Virus record (IMG/VR): IMGVR_UViG_3300025035_000013 | Coordinates: 24,627-88,626 of that record | Length of the DNA: 64,000 nucleotides | From: a virus | Strand: one strand, 5' to 3' | Shown here: one piece after another, positions 7,676 through 36,984 of the stretch | How positions within the stretch are numbered: the first letter of the stretch is position 1 | Layout of the letters: each line of letters starts with the position of its first letter | Made by a program: the position numbers and the translations under genes | Notes under the pieces: generated by a model | Told to the model about the DNA's origin: nothing | Seen by the model: only the letters and a program-made list of their open reading frames with translations | Databases searched by the model: none

Positions 7676-8773
7676 TCACATCTCCATTTTCTTCATGACA
7701 AAATCTCGTACCCTCTTTGCAACAGACGGCCCGAGTTCTTTGAATGTAAAACCAGAGGCTGCAATAATATTGACATCTTCTTTTATAATATCAGACATTA
7801 CCCAGCGAATCATGTCGCCTGTTTTCTTTATATCAACTTCCCCGCCATTCAACGTGTCAAATATAATTTGCGCAGCTTGTTCAAGGCGCCCATTATGGGC
7901 AAGTCTAGCAGCCAAATCCTTCAAATTATTAATTTTTTCTACATCAATTGTGGCGAGTATTTTTACTTTGCTATTGCTGTGTTTCTCTCCTTTTACTTTG
8001 AACCAAAAACCAGAATTATTATAATTTTCGTCGGTGCATCTCCAAACGATTCCCTCTCCTGTCGCGTTGACACCAAATGCCGCACCAACAGGGCATTCTT
8101 CTTCTACTGATAGAGTTAATTGATTGAGTTTATTTTGGACTGCATGAGGATTTTCAAAATCAATATCAAGTTGAAAGCAAGGAAAGTCATATATACAATA
8201 TATGCAAGATTCCTCAGGAATCTTTCCAGTTGGCCTCAATACATATTCACGGCATCCATCGATTGTATCAACAATTTGTTGACGTGTAAAATATGTCTTA
8301 TTGCCTTCCTCGTCAACAAATGCCACACCAAAGATAACAAACATTTTTGGCAGTTCAGAAATAGCAACACCTTTTTGGATGCCCTTCCCACACCATTCTC
8401 CCCAAACAACAATATCTTGTTTCAGAGAATCTGCGATTGCATCGCGAGCAATACATCTAGCTGTACACATTAAATCTCGAAACGCAAATTCGTTCGCAAT
8501 TGCAAACATGGCAAATCCAGCATTATCTCTTTCTGGTGTGATGATATTTTCGCGGGATTGATACCACATATCGCCATCATGCGACTGCGCAACAGAGGAA
8601 TTTGTCCCGTGTAATTTTACGGTGCCCTCAAAATGCAGTGTAGGAAGCTTAGCAGATGTATCGAAAATTGCATTCCCATTATCATCAAGCCCACTGAAGC
8701 GAACTTTATGCTGTACGTTTTTTACAACATTACGAAATTGCTCAATAGAAGGCCAGCGAATTAAATTTTGCAT
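7676..8773 (-). CDS. RNA ligase, Rnl2-like family
   Basis: Nucleotidyltransferase motifs KLHGTN, GEWCG, FVIFG, EGIVW, FKVK. Confidence 0.85.
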   Translation of the reverse strand: MQNLIRWPSIEQFRNVVKNVQHKVRFSGLDDNGNAIFDTSAKLPTLHFEGTVKLHGTNSSVAQSHDGDMWYQSRENIITPERDNAGFAMFAIANEFAFRDLMCTARCIARDAIADSLKQDIVVWGEWCGKGIQKGVAISELPKMFVIFGVAFVDEEGNKTYFTRQQIVDTIDGCREYVLRPTGKIPEESCIYCIYDFPCFQLDIDFENPHAVQNKLNQLTLSVEEECPVGAAFGVNATGEGIVWRCTDENYNNSGFWFKVKGEKHSNSKVKILATIDVEKINNLKDLAARLAHNGRLEQAAQIIFDTLNGGEVDIKKTGDMIRWVMSDIIKEDVNIIAASGFTFKELGPSVAKRVRDFVMKKMEM

Positions 8774-15524: not shown

Positions 15525-15878
15525 GTGTGCTTTTTCTGTTCCCAAGAAAAGCACCAAACTCGGCACTACACGACAATCAAGCCGCTAGTGCATATAAGCT
15601 ATCATTAGCTGCGTTTACTTTATTTACGCTATTTTAGTCAGTCGTCTGACTATCCCAAGAAAGTCTATTTCCTCAAAATCGAATCTATATCAGGCCCATT
15701 ACTAATGATATTAATTTGGTAGTTCAGTTTGATGCACCCATCATATTGGATAGTCCCTTCGTCAAGTTCTATCTATCCGTTTACTGTTTAACACCATTAG
15801 TGGTGGACCTGGGGAGGTACTGCCCCTCCCGTCTTCCAAGCCTTTAATACTCTCCTGCTTTACAATCTTTCGATTGTG
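15525..15878 (-). ncRNA. ssrA: circularly permuted (two-piece) tmRNA
   Basis: Acceptor piece ending CAGGTCC-A-CCA at 15801 precedes the coding piece starting GGGCCTG at 15697; G3:U70 pair; tag AANDSLYALAA* at 15612-15577. Confidence 0.9.
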
Positions 15879-15883
15879 AATTT

Positions 15884-15953
15884 TGGAATCCCCAATAGGC
15901 ATCGAACCTATCCTATTTCTTTAGGAAAGAAATGTCTGTCCATCAGTGAGGAT
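15884..15953 (-). tRNA. tRNA-Arg(CCT) with miniature D-arm
   Basis: Acceptor ATCCTCA/TGGGGAT, loop TTCCTAA, T-loop TTCGATG, CCA; D region only CTGATGGACAG. Confidence 0.65.
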
Positions 15954-17008: not shown

Positions 17009-17031
17009 TTTACCTCCGTACACATTAGGAT

Positions 17032-17102
17032 TGGAGGCCGAGGGAATCGAACCCTACCAGCACAATCATCGCAAATGATTGCCGTAACCCATTACTGCCC
17101 CC
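17032..17102 (-). tRNA. tRNA-Ala(TGC), short D-arm, no encoded CCA
   Basis: G3:U70, loop TTTGCGA, TTCGATT; D region GTAATGGGTTAC. Confidence 0.65.
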
Positions 17103-17118
17103 ATAAACTATATTTAAT

Positions 17119-17191
17119 TGGTTGCGACCGCAGGAATTGCACCTACTCCCATTCGTGGTTATGAGCCAGAAGTCTACTGATAGAAGTCGCA
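17119..17191 (-). tRNA. tRNA-Met(CAT), initiator-like, degenerate
   Basis: Acceptor TGCGACT/GGTCGCA, loop CTCATAA, CCA; weak D and anticodon stems. Confidence 0.55.
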
Positions 17192-17221
17192 GTTGTTACT
17201 ATACAAGACGGTATTAGCCAC

Positions 17222-18108: not shown

Positions 18109-18186
18109 TGGGGGAGCAACGAGACTTGCATTCGCAGGACTCCCTGATTCACAGCCAGAGGCTTTACTGATTAAGCTATACTCACC
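18109..18186 (-). tRNA. tRNA-His(GTG), degenerate
   Basis: G-1, loop CTGTGAA; acceptor mismatch and imperfect T-stem. Confidence 0.65.
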
Positions 18187-18316: not shown

Positions 18317-18387
18317 TGGTGCCCCGTAACGGTATCGAACCGCTCTGTTCCAGTTTCGAAGACTAGACACTGTCCATCAGACGAGGC
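18317..18387 (-). tRNA. tRNA-Arg(TCG) with miniature D-arm
   Basis: GCCTCGT/ACGGGGC, loop CTTCGAA, TTCGATA, CCA; D region CTGATGGACAG. Confidence 0.75.
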
Positions 18388-18672: not shown

Positions 18673-18767
18673 TGGTACTCCCCCACGGTTACGCTCCGTG
18701 CCGTTCCAGCCTATCTGACCAGTCTCCAGACTTTATAAAAATCCGCTGCACACTAATGCTGGGGAGC
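18673..18767 (-). tRNA. tRNA-Ile(TAT), non-canonical (short D region, very long variable region)
   Basis: GCTCCCC/GGGGAGT acceptor, loop TTTATAA, T-loop AGCGTAA, CCA; 95 nt. Confidence 0.65.
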
Positions 18768-19025: not shown

Positions 19026-19086
19026 AATTCATTATTTGGTTCAGCTCGGGTATATCTTAAAACATATTGCGATTAGACAACTTCTA

Positions 19087-19113
19087 TGGTCTCGGAGACA
19101 GGACTCGAACCAG
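19087..19113 (-). pseudogene. tRNA 3'-end remnant (T-arm, acceptor strand, CCA)
   Basis: CTGGTTCGAGTCCTGTCTCCGAGACCA with no 5' half. Confidence 0.6.
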
Positions 19114-19129
19114 TAGATGTCGGCAAATT

Positions 19130-19208
19130 TGGTCCGCCAGGAGAGACTCGAACTCCCATTGGTCCAATTACACGGCTACCGCTTAGAAGGCGGTTGTGAT
19201 ACTGGCGG
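19130..19208 (-). tRNA. tRNA-Arg(TCT), D-armless with 20-nt variable region
   Basis: Perfect acceptor CCGCCAG/CTGGCGG and anticodon stem ACCGC/GCGGT, loop CTTCTAA, TTCGAGT, CCA; only TATCACA between acceptor and anticodon stems. Confidence 0.75.
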
Positions 19209-23469: not shown

Positions 23470-24384
23470 TCAAAATCTGATGTTAGGATTGCCAACCTGA
23501 AAAACTTTAAGCCCCATTGCTCTCCAGTTATCACACACGCTAGGCCTATCATCGATAACGAATTGACAATTGTAATTCGGAGCAATATCTCTCCAGAAAA
23601 TTTCCTCTTTCACAACTGTATCTTTTCTCATATCACCTGTTGCTCGCATGAGTAACGTATCAAAAAAAATGTCATTATAATCGAGCCACTTTTCTGTTTC
23701 TGGTCTACAGATGCCATCTCTCCCAGAAAGAATTATAACAGTATCTTCCACTGGCATGTTATTTACCAAAAACTTTACTTGTTCATCACAATCATCCAGC
23801 CCGACTTTATCCCATTCAAACGCCCCGCGCTTACCATTCATGTGAGCCAATGTTCCATCTACATCAACCAAGATAGCCCTTGGTTTTGTGACGTCTGCAA
23901 CATACTGCCGAGTACTTGGAAATTCTTTAGTAAATTGTTCATACTGCTTCCAAATAACCTGATGACCGACAGTATCGCGGCGGCGCTCGTCACGCTTAAT
24001 TGCTTCCATCACATCAATATGGAAGACTTTGAACTCAACAGTATATCCAAGTTCTTCAAGTTTTGTATGCAGCAGTGACCGATATTTAATATTCAAATTC
24101 GTATCACCAATAATGATGTTTGCTTTCATCTTTGCGCAGTCATCAATTATTTCATTCACCATTTCAGTGACTTTGTTTTCATTTTCTTTTGTGAATTTCC
24201 AGAGGGACCAGAAGTTATCGCTAGAATTATCATCATCAAATCCAAGCAGGCGCTTGCGCATAATATCACGTTCAATTCTAACGAAGTAATCATATTCCCG
24301 CTTTGCAATTTCGGTGGTTTTGCCCGACCCCGAAATACCAATTGCAATAATAGCCCTTTTCACGTATTTCTCCTCGTACCACAT
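23470..24384 (-). CDS. pseT: polynucleotide 5'-kinase / 3'-phosphatase (T4 PseT)
   Basis: P-loop GISGSGKT and HAD motifs DVDGT, SGR, DDR. Confidence 0.92.
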   Translation of the reverse strand: MWYEEKYVKRAIIAIGISGSGKTTEIAKREYDYFVRIERDIMRKRLLGFDDDNSSDNFWSLWKFTKENENKVTEMVNEIIDDCAKMKANIIIGDTNLNIKYRSLLHTKLEELGYTVEFKVFHIDVMEAIKRDERRRDTVGHQVIWKQYEQFTKEFPSTRQYVADVTKPRAILVDVDGTLAHMNGKRGAFEWDKVGLDDCDEQVKFLVNNMPVEDTVIILSGRDGICRPETEKWLDYNDIFFDTLLMRATGDMRKDTVVKEEIFWRDIAPNYNCQFVIDDRPSVCDNWRAMGLKVFQVGNPNIRF

Positions 24385-24750: not shown

Positions 24751-25863
24751 CTAAGTCAATCTAGTCTTTAGCCATTCTGCTCTTTTGTTAACTGGAAACT
24801 TATTGAATTCATGTAACACGTCATTAACATTTGCGCTGCGGGCCTTAAACATTACGCAACTTAAAGGCAAGTCCTTAATCGCAATAGCAAAGTCCTTTTG
24901 TGATTCAATGGTCTTGAATTTACAATAATTATCTGTGAGTTCATTTTGTATAACTGCATACATTGATTGTGCTTCATTGAACTTATGTGTATCTTCAGGA
25001 AACGTAGCTAAGTATTCATCCACTTCGCGCGTGACGATAAGTTCACATACTGAATTCAAAGTCAAACCATTGCCACGGAGGCGATGGATTGCAAGATATG
25101 TAGGCGACTTTATTTTAACACGTGTTTTTGTTTTTGTGTTATATACAACAAACCCTTCCTTGAGTCCAGTCAATTCACCAAGCACTTTGAGACAATCATC
25201 TTGAGTATTAAATGAAAACACCTCAACAGGTCGGACATTCCAATTAAGCAAAGCGTTATGTACTTCCTGATTACCAATAAGATATTCATTGCCGGTTGCA
25301 TTTTCTACACTAGATAGAAATACCAGCATATTTTCTCCATACGGAGTTACTATGCGATTATCTTTCCCGATACACTCGAACAAGTATGTGTATTCCTTGT
25401 TCAGCAATTCCGTGCAGTCTTCTTGAAATTCTGCTTCTGTTCGGCCCATAGCTGATAGCATAAAATCTCGGAATGTCCCGAAGAATTCTTTCGGTCCTTC
25501 TGCAAAAGCAGTTCCGCGAGTACCGATTTCCCACTTCCCTGTTGGGAGGCAAAAGTACGTAAACATGAGTGAGCCGTCGGCTTTCTCAAATGTGATTGAA
25601 TTTTGAAAGTCGAATGTGTCGACCCCATTCTCACCCAAATTGTAAAAACGCGGCATGCCATTGCGAATAATAGAACCGTCATATCCAATTAGCAATCCTC
25701 GGCAAAGATTTACTATTGGATGATTCTTGATTGCTTCGATTTGATTATAGTTCAAAAGAACCATACCCAAATCTTCATAATGCTTCATGTCAATGCCGAG
25801 TTCAGTGAACTCTGCCCATCGTTTATTCAGCACAATATCAGATATTTTTTTCAAATTTGTCAT
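24751..25863 (-). CDS. rnlA: RNA ligase 1 (T4 RnlA-like)
   Basis: CRG, F-N, EKADGS adenylation motif, FE---NRIV--Y, EGFVV, KIKS--Y. Confidence 0.9.
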   Translation of the reverse strand: MTNLKKISDIVLNKRWAEFTELGIDMKHYEDLGMVLLNYNQIEAIKNHPIVNLCRGLLIGYDGSIIRNGMPRFYNLGENGVDTFDFQNSITFEKADGSLMFTYFCLPTGKWEIGTRGTAFAEGPKEFFGTFRDFMLSAMGRTEAEFQEDCTELLNKEYTYLFECIGKDNRIVTPYGENMLVFLSSVENATGNEYLIGNQEVHNALLNWNVRPVEVFSFNTQDDCLKVLGELTGLKEGFVVYNTKTKTRVKIKSPTYLAIHRLRGNGLTLNSVCELIVTREVDEYLATFPEDTHKFNEAQSMYAVIQNELTDNYCKFKTIESQKDFAIAIKDLPLSCVMFKARSANVNDVLHEFNKFPVNKRAEWLKTRLT

Positions 25864-36639: not shown

Positions 36640-36879
36640 CTTTTGTGTTTAAATGAAGTCGTTAATTTCATCCCATATAGCTGCATATTACTATGCAGAA
36701 CAGACTATCTCTTCACCTTCACAGGTGCTATGCGCTTCGAGTCACTTGACCCTACGGCTTTCGCCTAGTCGTTACACCTTCCCATATTAGGGCTTGGCTC
36801 GGTATTGTCCCAATTTGGGATGTTCACCGAATTCACATAGTTTTCAATTACAAATTTCTTTGTATTGCGCCCACGATTA
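36640..36879 (-). mobile_element. group I self-splicing intron, 240 nt, no homing endonuclease
   Basis: U|TAA 5' junction, terminal G; P GAATTCGGTGAA, Q AATACCGAGCCAAG, R AACGACTA, S GAAGAGATAGTCTG; P3 CTATGTG/CGCATAG; removal restores KIA-ANSAFG. Confidence 0.9.
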
Positions 36880-36984
36880 AGCGATTTTCAATGCAAGTTG
36901 TTTATTTTTTAATGCTGCTATTTTTGCTCTACTACTATTTCTCAATTCTAAAAGCTCGTCTAAAGTCATTTCTGAATAATTCAT
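36880..36984 (-). CDS. gp43: DNA polymerase gp43B, exon 1 (35 codons)
   Basis: MNYSEMTLDELL...KQLALKIA; AGGA RBS. Confidence 0.85.

What the first reader, a model, noticed from the sequence alone, without database searches (positions are those of the whole stretch)
19130..19208. D-armless tRNA-Arg(UCU) with a D-loop-like motif relocated into the variable region
Seen: perfect acceptor and anticodon stems, canonical T-loop and CCA, but only 7 nt (TATCACA) where the D-arm belongs. The 20-nt variable region AGCCGTGTAATTGGACCAAT contains TAATTGGA, the usual D-loop sequence with GG and the ArgRS determinant A20. The linker CAC could pair with GTG just before it. Inference: a topologically rearranged tRNA that rebuilds the elbow from the other side of the anticodon arm. 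Intact stems argue against decay.
Basis: partly seen in the sequence, partly recalled or inferred. Interest (0 to 1): 0.75.

Follow-up and report, generated by a model that had tools for sequence, protein, structure and literature searches.

The report
Phage arginine tRNA with rewired D-arm
This 79-base gene is very probably a working arginine tRNA of a groundwater phage in which half of the D-arm lies after the anticodon arm instead of before it. Many unrelated phages share this non-cloverleaf layout, annotation tools often miss or mislabel it, and I found no paper that describes it.

Summary
On the minus strand at 19208..19130 there is a tRNA-like gene with perfect 7-bp acceptor, 5-bp anticodon and 5-bp T stems, a CUUCUAA loop (anticodon UCU) and an encoded ACCA. 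Only 7 nt lie where the D-arm belongs, and the 20-nt variable region holds UAAUUGGA.

I collected 89 distinct homologues from 81 phage loci. In these, linker positions 11-13 (CAC here) pair with the 3 nt just before UAAUUGGA (GUG here) in 15 different compensatory combinations. RNAalifold predicts the same helix on its own. The 15/48-like positions covary as a Levitt pair: A·U 82, G·C 6, G·U 1, A·C 0. U8-A9 is invariant and GGA is kept in 88 of 89.

Of the 89, 86 carry Arg anticodons (UCU, ACG, CCU, UCG) and 3 carry Ile-type anticodons. The family is phage-borne: only 2 true hits in 185,579 species' genomes, both in phage-like tRNA arrays. AGA is this phage's commonest Arg codon, and this is the only UCU tRNA in the record.

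Charging and decoding are inferred, not shown. This scan reached the same reading on other DNA at least ten times. Eight literature searches found no description.

The parts
19130..19208 (-). Whole gene: rearranged-core tRNA-Arg(UCU), 76 nt plus encoded CCA
   Evidence: Sequence. Rfam RF00005 35.8 bits. Family model R1 84.7 bits.
19202..19208 (-). Acceptor stem 5' strand, CCGCCAG (nt 1-7)
   Evidence: Pairs 7/7 with 19134-19140. All 7 pairs show double compensatory changes in the family.
19199..19201 (-). U8, A9, U10. U8-A9 is invariant in all 89 members.
   Evidence: Invariant although no search pattern or parser required it. Inferred roles: U8 pairs with the A14-like base, and N10 faces the U13-like base.
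19196..19198 (-). H5 = CAC (nt 11-13): D-stem strand continuous with the anticodon stem (equivalent to canonical 23-25)
   Evidence: Pairs with GUG at 19171-19173. 15 covarying combinations across the family.
19178..19194 (-). Anticodon arm ACCGC-CUUCUAA-GCGGU. Anticodon UCU is at 19185-19187.
   Evidence: 5/5 pairs. U33 and A37 are canonical. The stem covaries in the family.
19174..19177 (-). Linker AGCC (equivalent to positions 44-45 plus a spacer). It is 4-5 nt in most members and up to 12 nt in some.
   Evidence: Length and content tabulated. The second base is usually G. Vibrio phage K406 has a 12-nt linker.
19171..19173 (-). H3 = GUG (nt 36-38): the other D-stem strand (equivalent to canonical 10-12)
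   Evidence: Covaries with H5.
19163..19170 (-). D-loop-like UAAUUGGA (equivalent to U13, A14, A15, U16, U17, G18, G19, A20)
   Evidence: GGA kept in 88/89 members. The third base (15-like) covaries with the base before the T stem. Natural variants: UAAUGGA, UAACGGA, UAAGUGGA, UAGYUGGA.
19158..19162 (-). CCAAU: connector from the GGA to the T stem, ending in a conserved A-U (the U is 48-like)
   Evidence: The last base is U in all 82 A15 members and C in 6 of 7 G15 members. The penultimate base is A in 88/89.
19141..19157 (-). T arm GGGAG-UUCGAGU-CUCUC
   Evidence: 5/5 pairs. Canonical UUCGA loop and G53-C61-type closing pair. The stem covaries.
19130..19140 (-). Acceptor 3' strand CUGGCGG, discriminator A, encoded CCA
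   Evidence: Sequence. Discriminator is G 41, A 22, U 3 among 66 members, and CCA is encoded in half.

Best explanation
This is a functional elongator tRNA-Arg(UCU) of a phage, belonging to a large phage-borne family with a rewired core. The acceptor, anticodon and T arms are ordinary. The D-stem is not a hairpin. One strand (nt 11-13, straight after U8-A9-N10) runs directly into the 5' strand of the anticodon stem. Its partner strand lies 3' of the anticodon arm and is followed by a D-loop-like U-A-R-N(1-3)-G-G-A and a short connector ending in A-U before the T stem. So the secondary structure is a three-way junction in which the anticodon arm is nested inside the D-stem. In canonical numbering, the block 10-20 (D-stem 5' strand plus D-loop) has moved into the variable loop, which amounts to a circular permutation of the D/anticodon domain. 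Inferred: the helix stacks on the anticodon stem like a normal D-stem, with the same number of layers. The GG reaches the T-loop, U8 pairs with the A14-like base, and the 15-like base pairs with the 48-like base, so an L-shape of normal size is rebuilt. Also inferred: the host ArgRS charges it through the A after GG (A20-like), C35, U36 and A73, and it reads AGA, the phage's commonest arginine codon.
For: Shown:
- The sequence has every arm as described.
- Rfam's tRNA model scores it 35.8 bits against a gathering score of 29.
- A pattern that left the helix free found 79 viral loci. In all, 89 distinct members lie in 81 loci.
- All four helices covary: 97.5% of cells paired against 62.8% in shuffles (0/500), and 37-46% when partners are slid.
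- Helix H has 15 combinations, with pairs 11 and 12 Watson-Crick in 66/66 using all four pair types.
- RNAalifold predicts the same structure unaided.
- Family model R1 separates members (at least 52.9 bits) from ordinary tRNAs (at most 32.4 bits) in 783 kb.
- Tertiary-pair signal at 15/48: A·U 82, G·C 6, G·U 1, A·C 0, Fisher p about 1e-8, not tree-corrected.
- U8-A9 is invariant and GGA is present in 88/89, neither imposed by the parser.
- 86 of 89 anticodons are Arg. A scan that excluded C35 found only 2 true members in IMG/VR.
- The bacterial Arg identity set A/G73, A20, C35, U/G36 (PMC9976931) is matched.
- AGA is 41.6% of Arg codons in this 36.6% GC record, and no other UCU tRNA is present.
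- Only 3 of 73 loci with a rearranged UCU gene also hold a separate canonical UCU tRNA.
- RNA-library contigs from three aquifer runs cover the gene at 100% identity.
- No ArgRS gene in this record or in four 91-100% complete jumbo phages that carry the family, while 14/14 control genomes gave a hit.
Against: - There is no direct evidence of processing, charging or decoding.
- The RNA-library contigs cannot exclude DNA carry-over and cannot show RNA ends.
- Nearest-neighbour energies do not favour the 3-bp helix. It is in the MFE fold of only 6 of 89 members, and the proposed fold lies a median 3 kcal/mol above the MFE; for this gene, -23.4 against -25.9.
- Pair 13 is mismatched in 21 of 89 members (subfamilies UGG/GCA and GCC/AGC). 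These need a bulged alternative register that I worked out only by eye.
- Most members were found with patterns that fixed UAAUUGGA, the anticodon loop and UUCGA. Conservation of those motifs is therefore partly by construction; the unbiased evidence comes from about 25 members found by the model or by BLAST.
- The mapping onto canonical numbering and the L-shape are inferences without a 3D model.
- This record is only 57% complete, so a canonical UCU tRNA could lie in the missing part.
I could not retrieve which part.
Confidence: 0.8

Rival explanations
1. It has the same rewired fold but is not an adaptor in translation. Instead it is a tRNA-like decoy or regulator, for example a sponge for a host nuclease or toxin directed at tRNA-Arg, or a ligand for ArgRS.
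For: Nothing here shows charging or decoding. The phage invests in RNA repair (Rnl1, Pnk and an Rnl2-like protein), which fits conflict over tRNAs. Phage tRNAs are proposed to counter tRNA-targeting defences (PMC10264068, listed).
Against: A decoy would not need strictly kept anticodon loops of four different Arg isoacceptors, an A/G73 discriminator, an encoded CCA in half the members, and canonical EF-Tu and ribosome contact surfaces (7/5 acceptor/T branch, UUCGA loop). In 70 of 73 loci it is the only UCU tRNA in the stretch fetched, and AGA is the phage's main Arg codon.
Confidence: 0.1
2. It is a truly D-armless tRNA of the mitochondrial kind, or a class II-like tRNA. The 7-nt linker is an unpaired D-replacement loop, and the long variable region is unstructured or forms its own hairpin (AUUG-GAC-CAAU in this copy).
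For: The MFE fold of this copy does not contain CAC/GUG. In this one sequence, AUUG and CAAU could pair.
Against: The linker covaries with the 3 nt before UAAUUGGA in 15 combinations. The D-like motif plus connector folds into a hairpin of 3 bp or more in only 1 of 89 members. The connector varies (CACAU, UUUAU, UCGAU and others) while UAAUUGGA stays fixed, so there is no covariation for a variable-arm hairpin.
Confidence: 0.04
3. It is a decaying pseudogene, left after a deletion of the D-arm and an insertion in the variable loop of an ordinary tRNA-Arg.
For: ARAGORN does not call it. Rfam aligns it as a deletion plus an insertion. Disrupted relatives exist: L031 and L127.
Against: 89 distinct copies occur in phages of Proteobacteria and Actinobacteria and in a crAss-like phage, and every stem is kept by compensatory change. 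In most loci it is the only UCU tRNA in the stretch fetched.
Confidence: 0.02
4. It is a working tRNA with this fold but is charged with something other than arginine, so it recodes AGA.
For: Three members carry Ile-type anticodons (UAU twice, GAU once), so the scaffold can change identity.
Against: This copy has all four bacterial Arg determinants: A73, an A after GG, C35 and U36. The one Ile-type member found without a motif-fixing pattern (crAss-like cr130_1) has changed GGA to GGU-U, so the A tracks the Arg anticodons.
Confidence: 0.03

Closest known systems
Canonical bacterial and phage tRNA-Arg(UCU) (class I cloverleaf, Rfam RF00005).
   Same: 7-bp acceptor stem, 5-bp T stem with a UUCGA loop, 5-bp anticodon stem with a CUUCUAA loop, A/G73, a GG-A motif, U8, a 5-nt connector before the T stem (ACACAU in L088 against CACAU in many members), and the inferred job of reading AGA.
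   Different: In the cloverleaf the D-stem is a hairpin between positions 9 and 26. Here its two strands lie on either side of the anticodon arm and the D-loop follows the anticodon arm, giving a three-way junction instead of a four-way one.
D-armless mitochondrial tRNAs, for example metazoan mt tRNA-Ser(AGY/UCU) (reviewed in PMC7609411 and PMC4013460)
   Same: There is only a short linker between the acceptor and anticodon stems, and standard finders have trouble with them.
   Different: The mitochondrial linker is an unpaired replacement loop, the D-loop/T-loop elbow is lost, and dedicated factors are needed. Here the linker is one strand of a covarying helix, the GG motif and a Levitt-type pair are kept, and the genes are in phages of bacteria.
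Circularly permuted tRNA genes of Cyanidioschyzon merolae (PMC3978253)
   Same: tRNA segments are in a non-standard order in the gene.
   Different: There the whole gene is permuted at the acceptor ends and processing restores a normal cloverleaf tRNA. Here the acceptor ends are collinear and paired. Only the internal D/anticodon domain is permuted, and I see nothing that would restore the canonical order, so the mature RNA should keep the new topology.
Allo-tRNAs and (8/4) or (9/3) tRNAs from bacteria and phages (PMC5389517)
   Same: They are non-canonical tRNAs found in metagenomes and phage tRNA clusters, and were also missed or mis-annotated.
   Different: Those differ in the acceptor/T branch (8/4, 9/3) and have long V-arms and ordinary hairpin D-arms. 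This family has a 7/5 branch and a split D-stem.
Engineered circularly permuted tRNA-Phe
   Same: It shows that the tRNA tertiary fold can tolerate changed backbone connectivity.
   Different: It is a synthetic construct permuted over the whole molecule, not a natural gene family, and it was not tested as an adaptor in cells.

Membership tests
tRNA (Rfam RF00005) | Score at or above the curated gathering threshold (29 bits) | tested here: met
   35.8 bits on 4.3-kb and 0.3-kb stretches, but filtered out in the 64-kb default search. In a 44-kb default search, 12 of 22 family members passed, at 32-44 bits.
tRNA (Rfam RF00005) | 7-bp acceptor stem, discriminator base and CCA end | tested here: met
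   CCGCCAG/CUGGCGG, A, CCA. The stem covaries at all 7 pairs.
tRNA (Rfam RF00005) | 5-bp anticodon stem and 7-nt loop with U33 and a purine at 37 | tested here: met
   ACCGC-CUUCUAA-GCGGU.
tRNA (Rfam RF00005) | 5-bp T stem with a UUCRA-type loop | tested here: met
   GGGAG-UUCGAGU-CUCUC. 99.7% of cells paired in the family.
tRNA (Rfam RF00005) | Hairpin D-arm between positions 9 and 26 (cloverleaf) | tested here: not met
   Only 7 nt lie between the acceptor and anticodon stems, and Infernal aligns the D-arm as deleted. The D-stem partner strand lies 3' of the anticodon arm.
tRNA (Rfam RF00005) | L-shape tertiary contacts: U8·A14, R15·Y48, G18G19 with the T-loop | tested here: inconclusive
   The sequence equivalents are conserved: U8 in 89/89 and GG in 89/89. 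The 15/48 positions covary: A·U 82, G·C 6, G·U 1. No 3D model or probing is available.
Bacterial tRNA-Arg identity set (PMC9976931, Table 1) | C35 and U36 or G36 | tested here: met
   Anticodon UCU. 86 of 89 family members have NCU or NCG.
Bacterial tRNA-Arg identity set (PMC9976931, Table 1) | A20 in the D-loop variable pocket | tested here: inconclusive
   An A directly follows GG in 88/89 members, and the exception has an Ile-type anticodon. That this A occupies the position-20 pocket in 3D is inferred.
Bacterial tRNA-Arg identity set (PMC9976931, Table 1) | Discriminator A73 or G73 | tested here: met
   A in this copy. G 41, A 22, U 3 among 66 members.
Bacterial tRNA-Arg identity set (PMC9976931, Table 1) | Aminoacylation by ArgRS | not testable with these tools
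   Needs an in vitro or in vivo charging assay. No phage-encoded ArgRS was found, so the host enzyme would have to act.
D-armless mitochondrial-type tRNA | Unpaired D-replacement loop with no D-stem | tested here: not met
   Linker nt 11-13 form a covarying helix with the 3 nt before UAAUUGGA.
Class II tRNA (long variable arm) | Self-paired variable-arm hairpin | tested here: not met
   The D-like motif plus connector forms a hairpin of 3 bp or more in 1 of 89 members.
Circularly permuted tRNA gene (C. merolae type) | The 3' half lies upstream of the 5' half, with the acceptor ends joined in the precursor | tested here: not met
   The acceptor 5' and 3' strands are at the two ends of the gene in normal order and pair 7/7.
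Allo-tRNA, (8/4) or (9/3) tRNAs | 8/4 or 9/3 acceptor/T branch | tested here: not met
   The branch is 7/5 in this copy and throughout the alignment.

The most novel reading that the evidence does not exclude
The rewiring is an adaptation in the conflict over tRNAs. It keeps every surface that RNase P, ArgRS, EF-Tu and the ribosome need, but changes the backbone path through the core (positions 8-10, 21-22 and 44-48). This would make the phage's arginine tRNAs invisible to a host nuclease or toxin that recognises cloverleaf tRNA-Arg, or to the phage's own host-tRNA-destroying activity. A natural, widespread non-cloverleaf tRNA working on bacterial ribosomes would also be a ready-made orthogonal scaffold.
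Probability: 0.25. Interest if true: 0.9.

Novelty: new variant of a known kind. Interest (0 to 1): 0.8.

Why it matters
Textbooks and recent papers hold that tRNAs used on bacterial ribosomes are all cloverleaves. [quoted passage not shown] If these genes work as inferred, there is a natural, widespread exception, in which the D/anticodon domain is circularly permuted yet the L-shape is apparently rebuilt.

That would matter in four ways:
- **tRNA architecture:** it shows which features of tRNA are essential (the surfaces) and which are historical (the chain order).
- **Phage annotation and codon-usage studies:** these genes are often missing or mislabelled. Examples are tRNA-Phe in Streptomyces phage Mildred21, tRNA-Ser in Alishewanella phage Slicko01, and hypothetical proteins in Vibrio phages.
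- **Why phages carry tRNAs:** it bears on the debate, since nearly all members are arginine tRNAs.
- **Synthetic biology:** it offers a natural non-cloverleaf scaffold.

Cultured phages with known hosts carry the family, so the question can be tested directly.

Tried and rejected
- Megablast of the region against GenBank phages found nothing.
- An exact 27-mer scan of viral contigs found nothing.
- ARAGORN at a lowered threshold and in mitochondrial mode gave only shifted, implausible folds.
- Variable-arm hairpin rival: rejected, 1 of 89.
- Phage-encoded ArgRS as a partner: none found in this record or in four near-complete jumbo phages.
- Genome-contig scan: 7 of the 9 pattern matches were chance, with no significant model hit.
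- Non-Arg scan: 45 pattern matches, of which only 2 new true members (L155, L118). A third hit, L126, is an ACG member matched in a shifted register, and the rest were chance or degenerate.
- The mini-D-arm motif in L046 is a chance match inside coding sequence.
- I tested whether the tRNA 3'-half-like fragment downstream (19087-19125) is a remnant of a destroyed canonical tRNA-Arg. BLAST was uninformative, all E values 0.3 or higher.
- Promoter scan: a weak minus-strand site lies about 19 nt upstream, but the number of sites is not above chance.
- Laid RNA runs: they show presence in RNA libraries only. One contig ends at 19209, one base past the predicted 5' end, which contigs cannot certify as an RNA end.
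- My first census script dropped members through a lazy-regex mis-parse. I replaced it with explicit enumeration.
- Eight literature searches and reads of PMC7609411 and PMC5389517 found no description of this fold. The library lacks most subscription journals, so this is absence of evidence only.
- I could not retrieve which part of the earlier claim 'fell'.

Full report
**What is there.** On the minus strand of the window, 19208..19130, lies a 79-nt gene. It has a 7-bp acceptor stem (CCGCCAG/CUGGCGG) followed by the linker UAUCACA. Next comes a 5-bp anticodon stem with the loop CUUCUAA (anticodon UCU), then a 20-nt segment AGCC-GUG-UAAUUGGA-CCAAU. It ends with a 5-bp T stem with loop UUCGAGU, discriminator A and an encoded CCA. 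The gene sits in a minus-strand array of at least 13 tRNA genes plus a permuted tmRNA. ARAGORN does not call it. Rfam's tRNA model missed it in the whole-window default search. On shorter stretches the same model scores 35.8 bits against a gathering score of 29, aligning it with the D-arm deleted and a 17-nt insertion in the variable region.

**The genome.** The window belongs to a 98.7-kb linear virus record estimated to be 57% complete. The DNA is held by aquifer, groundwater and hot-spring metagenome runs. Neighbouring genes are T4-like RNA-repair and DNA-modification functions: RNA ligase 1, polynucleotide kinase, an Rnl2-like protein and an HMC glucosyltransferase-like protein. The nearest GenBank phages share only about 40-45% identity in the kinase.

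**Homologues.** A low-stringency BLAST found unannotated look-alikes in two cultured Vibrio phages. They share the loop, a UAYCACA linker and CCGUGUAAUUGGA, and have compensatory changes in all three ordinary stems. I then scanned the viral contig collection with a pattern that fixed only the anticodon loop, UAAUUGGA and UUCGA. It left the linker and the three bases before UAAUUGGA free, and it returned 79 loci. A covariance model built from 66 distinct members (R1) separated family members (at least 52.9 bits) from ordinary tRNAs (at most 32.4 bits) in 783 kb. It also picked up paralogues the pattern could not see. Further scans and BLAST searches added G15 variants, two members in MAG contigs, two Ile-type members and eight members in cultured or reference phages. 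A structure-aware census gives 89 distinct members in 81 loci.

In the 66-sequence alignment, linker positions 11-13 pair with the three bases immediately before UAAUUGGA.
- Pair 11 is CG 48, UA 11, GC 6, AU 1.
- Pair 12 is GC 36, CG 17, AU 7, UA 6.
- Pair 13 is GC 28, CG 20, AU 1, with 17 non-pairs confined to two subfamilies.

Over the whole structure, 97.5% of cells are paired against 62.8% in shuffles (0 of 500 reach it) and 37-46% when partners are slid by 1-3 columns. RNAalifold, given only the alignment, predicts exactly the same four helices. In the full census there are 15 different three-base combinations, with CAC/GUG, this gene's, among them. In the UGG/GCA subfamily an alternative register with one bulged G gives a 4-bp helix (G13 with Y, C14 with G) that also covaries, but I worked that out only by eye.

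**Evidence that the core is rebuilt.**
- U8-A9 is invariant in all 89 members although nothing in the searches required it.
- The base just before the T stem is U in all 82 members whose D-like motif reads UAA.... It is C in 6 of the 7 that read UAG... (G·U in the seventh), and A·C never occurs. This is the behaviour of the R15·Y48 Levitt pair.
- The base before that U or C is A in 88 of 89 members.
- GG is universal, and the base after it is A in 88 of 89.
- Counting layers, anticodon stem (5) + N14 facing the first linker base (a 26·44-like pair) + helix H (3) + N10 facing the U (a 22·13-like pair) equals the canonical anticodon stem + 26 + 4-bp D-stem. So the distance from anticodon to elbow would be preserved; this is my inference.

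In canonical numbering, my reading is that the block 10-20 has moved from before 22-45 to after it. That is a circular permutation of the D/anticodon domain, which could arise by tandem duplication and trimming. One member (L114:2951-3039) carries an extra UCC-GCAA-GGA mini-hairpin between GGA and the A-U, where a class II variable arm would protrude.

**Identity and function.**
- Of the 89 members, 73 have anticodon UCU, 7 ACG, 4 CCU and 2 UCG, so 86 are arginine. Two have UAU and one has GAU.
- A scan of the whole viral collection that excluded C35 found just two true members, against 79 loci for UCU alone.
- The bacterial Arg identity set is A/G73, A20, C35 and U/G36 (PMC9976931). This gene has A73, the A after GG, C35 and U36.
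- The crAss-like UAU member has GG-UU and A73. U20, U21 and A73 are bacterial Ile determinants in the same table. This hints that identity tracks that position, but it is a single case.
- No ArgRS gene was found in this record or in four 91-100% complete jumbo phages with the family, so a host enzyme would have to charge it.
- The record is 36.6% GC, and AGA is its commonest Arg codon: 41.6% of Arg codons, 15.4 per 1000. This gene is its only UCU tRNA.
- Among 73 loci with a rearranged UCU gene, only 3 also hold a separate canonical UCU tRNA in the stretch fetched. The rearranged gene usually stands in for the ordinary one and does not duplicate it.
- Metatranscriptome-library contigs from three aquifer runs cover the gene at 100% identity. 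This is compatible with transcription but does not exclude DNA carry-over.

**Distribution and annotation.** In one genome for each of 185,579 prokaryote species, the UCU pattern has only two true members (82.8 and 88.1 bits). Both are on MAG contigs with dense phage-style tRNA arrays. One IMG/VR carrier is classed as a provirus. The family is therefore phage-borne, which is a safer word than phage-only. Confirmed carriers are:
- Agrobacterium phage Atu_ph04
- Stenotrophomonas phage SOVA965
- Limnohabitans phage DC31
- Microbacterium phage Zooman
- Vibrio phages K406, 277E43-1 and 1.101.O
- Streptomyces phage Mildred21
- Alishewanella phage Slicko01
- crAss-like phage cr130_1

In these records the gene is mostly unannotated. 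In some it is overlapped by a 'hypothetical protein' or labelled tRNA-Phe(gaa) or tRNA-Ser. The statement that gene finders miss it needs bounds. ARAGORN reports a tRNA at the member in 3 of 73 loci, and misfolds it each time. Rfam's tRNA model at its curated threshold finds 12 of 22 members in a 44-kb search, at 32-44 bits. Infernal-based finders will therefore catch a fraction of them and draw them as D-arm-deleted tRNAs.

**Against, and limits.**
- Nearest-neighbour folding does not favour the 3-bp helix: it is in the MFE of 6 of 89 members, and the proposed fold is a median 3 kcal/mol above the MFE. Short D-stems generally depend on tertiary contacts, so I give this less weight than the covariation.
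- Most members were found through patterns that fixed three motifs, so their invariance is partly by construction.
- The Fisher test on positions 15/48 ignores phylogeny.
- Charging, processing, decoding and the 3D fold are all inferred.

**Prior knowledge.** Eight full-text searches and two targeted reads found no description of this topology. The reads were the 2020 review of non-canonical tRNAs (PMC7609411) and the allo-tRNA paper (PMC5389517). The library lacks most subscription journals. Within this scan the same class has been reported at least ten times on other DNA with the same reading, including Arg and Ile members and carriers such as Felix O1-like phages. My analysis was done before I read those notes and agrees with them. 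One note says a later check of the same claim elsewhere found that part of it fell. I could not see which part, so I have bounded the claims about finders, phage restriction, novelty and function accordingly.

**Verdict.** The gene is a new structural variant of a known kind (tRNA). The secondary structure is very well supported. The tertiary structure and the function are plausible but untested.

Noticed in passing
window 15884-15953 (-) and 18317-18387 (-): The phage's other two arginine tRNAs (CCU and UCG) share an identical miniature D-arm, CUG-AUGGA-CAG, placed directly after the acceptor stem (anticodon at position 29). So all three Arg tRNAs of this phage have abnormal D regions. An exact-motif scan found few further real examples: L169, and the identical pair L170/L171, where U-C precedes the motif.
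   Followed up: partly
window 19087-19125 (-): Directly downstream of the candidate lies a tRNA 3'-half-like fragment: a T-arm-like CUGG-UUCGAGU-CCUG, then CUCCGAG-A-CCA, with no 5' acceptor partner nearby. A second ...CCCGAG...ACCA end lies near 19037-19050. BLAST gave no informative match, so its origin is unknown. It could be a remnant of a replaced tRNA gene.
   Followed up: partly
window 15577-15866 (-): A permuted (two-piece) tmRNA gene lies at the end of the phage tRNA array: Rfam RF04321, 82.2 bits against a gathering score of 47.
   Followed up: no
window 36681-36889 (-): A group I intron: Rfam RF00028, 93.9 bits against a gathering score of 50.
   Followed up: no
window 18111-18185 (-), 17120-17200 (-), 17031-17101 (-), 18673-18767 (-): Further tRNA-like genes that ARAGORN skips. 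One scores 32.9 bits with Rfam's tRNA model. One has a CAU loop. One is a GGGGGC.../...GCCUCC element. One has a UAU anticodon, a roughly 27-nt variable region and a non-canonical T-loop (AGCGUAA). Family model R1 matches none of them.
   Followed up: partly
L155:1726-1802, L118:10605-10681, L166:398-475 (crAss-like phage cr130_1): Three members of the rewired family carry isoleucine-type anticodons (UAU, GAU, UAU). The crAss-like one has GG-UU in place of GG-A and an A73 discriminator, which match bacterial Ile determinants U20, U21 and A73. This suggests the scaffold has switched identity.
   Followed up: partly
L114:2951-3039 (-): An ACG member with an extra UCC-GCAA-GGA mini-hairpin inserted between the GGA and the A-U before the T stem, so that site tolerates an added arm. 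Model score 42.2 bits.
   Followed up: partly
L001:2493-2577 and L002:2493-2577 (Vibrio phages 277E43-1 and 1.101.O): In these two members the two bases 5' of the acceptor stem (GC) pair with the two bases after the discriminator position (GC). This gives an apparent 9-bp acceptor helix, and no CCA is encoded. It may be leader/trailer pairing or a true longer stem.
   Followed up: no
L165:395-470 (Streptomyces phage Mildred21); L167:385-460 (Alishewanella phage Slicko01); L001:2390-2554 and L164:370-462 (Vibrio phages): Public annotations mislabel family members. A UCG member is annotated tRNA-Phe(gaa). A UCU member is annotated tRNA-Ser. Short 'hypothetical protein' CDSs are drawn over two others.
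   Followed up: yes
L031:3201-3271 and L127:1665-1735: Disrupted copies of the family. L031 loses the 3' T-stem and acceptor strand, and L127 lacks a recognisable 5' half. They are probably pseudogenes or insertion-interrupted genes.
   Followed up: no
L163:257-842 (Microbacterium phage Zooman): A cluster of four arginine tRNA genes. Three are annotated cloverleaf genes (ACG, CCG, CCU). An unannotated rearranged ACG member lies at 401-476, so rearranged and canonical ACG genes sit side by side.
   Followed up: partly
window 7676-8773 (-), 23470-24384 (-), 24751-25863 (-): A T4-like tRNA-repair toolkit flanks the tRNA array: RNA ligase 1, polynucleotide kinase/phosphatase and an Rnl2-like protein. 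This fits a phage exposed to tRNA-cleaving defences.
   Followed up: no
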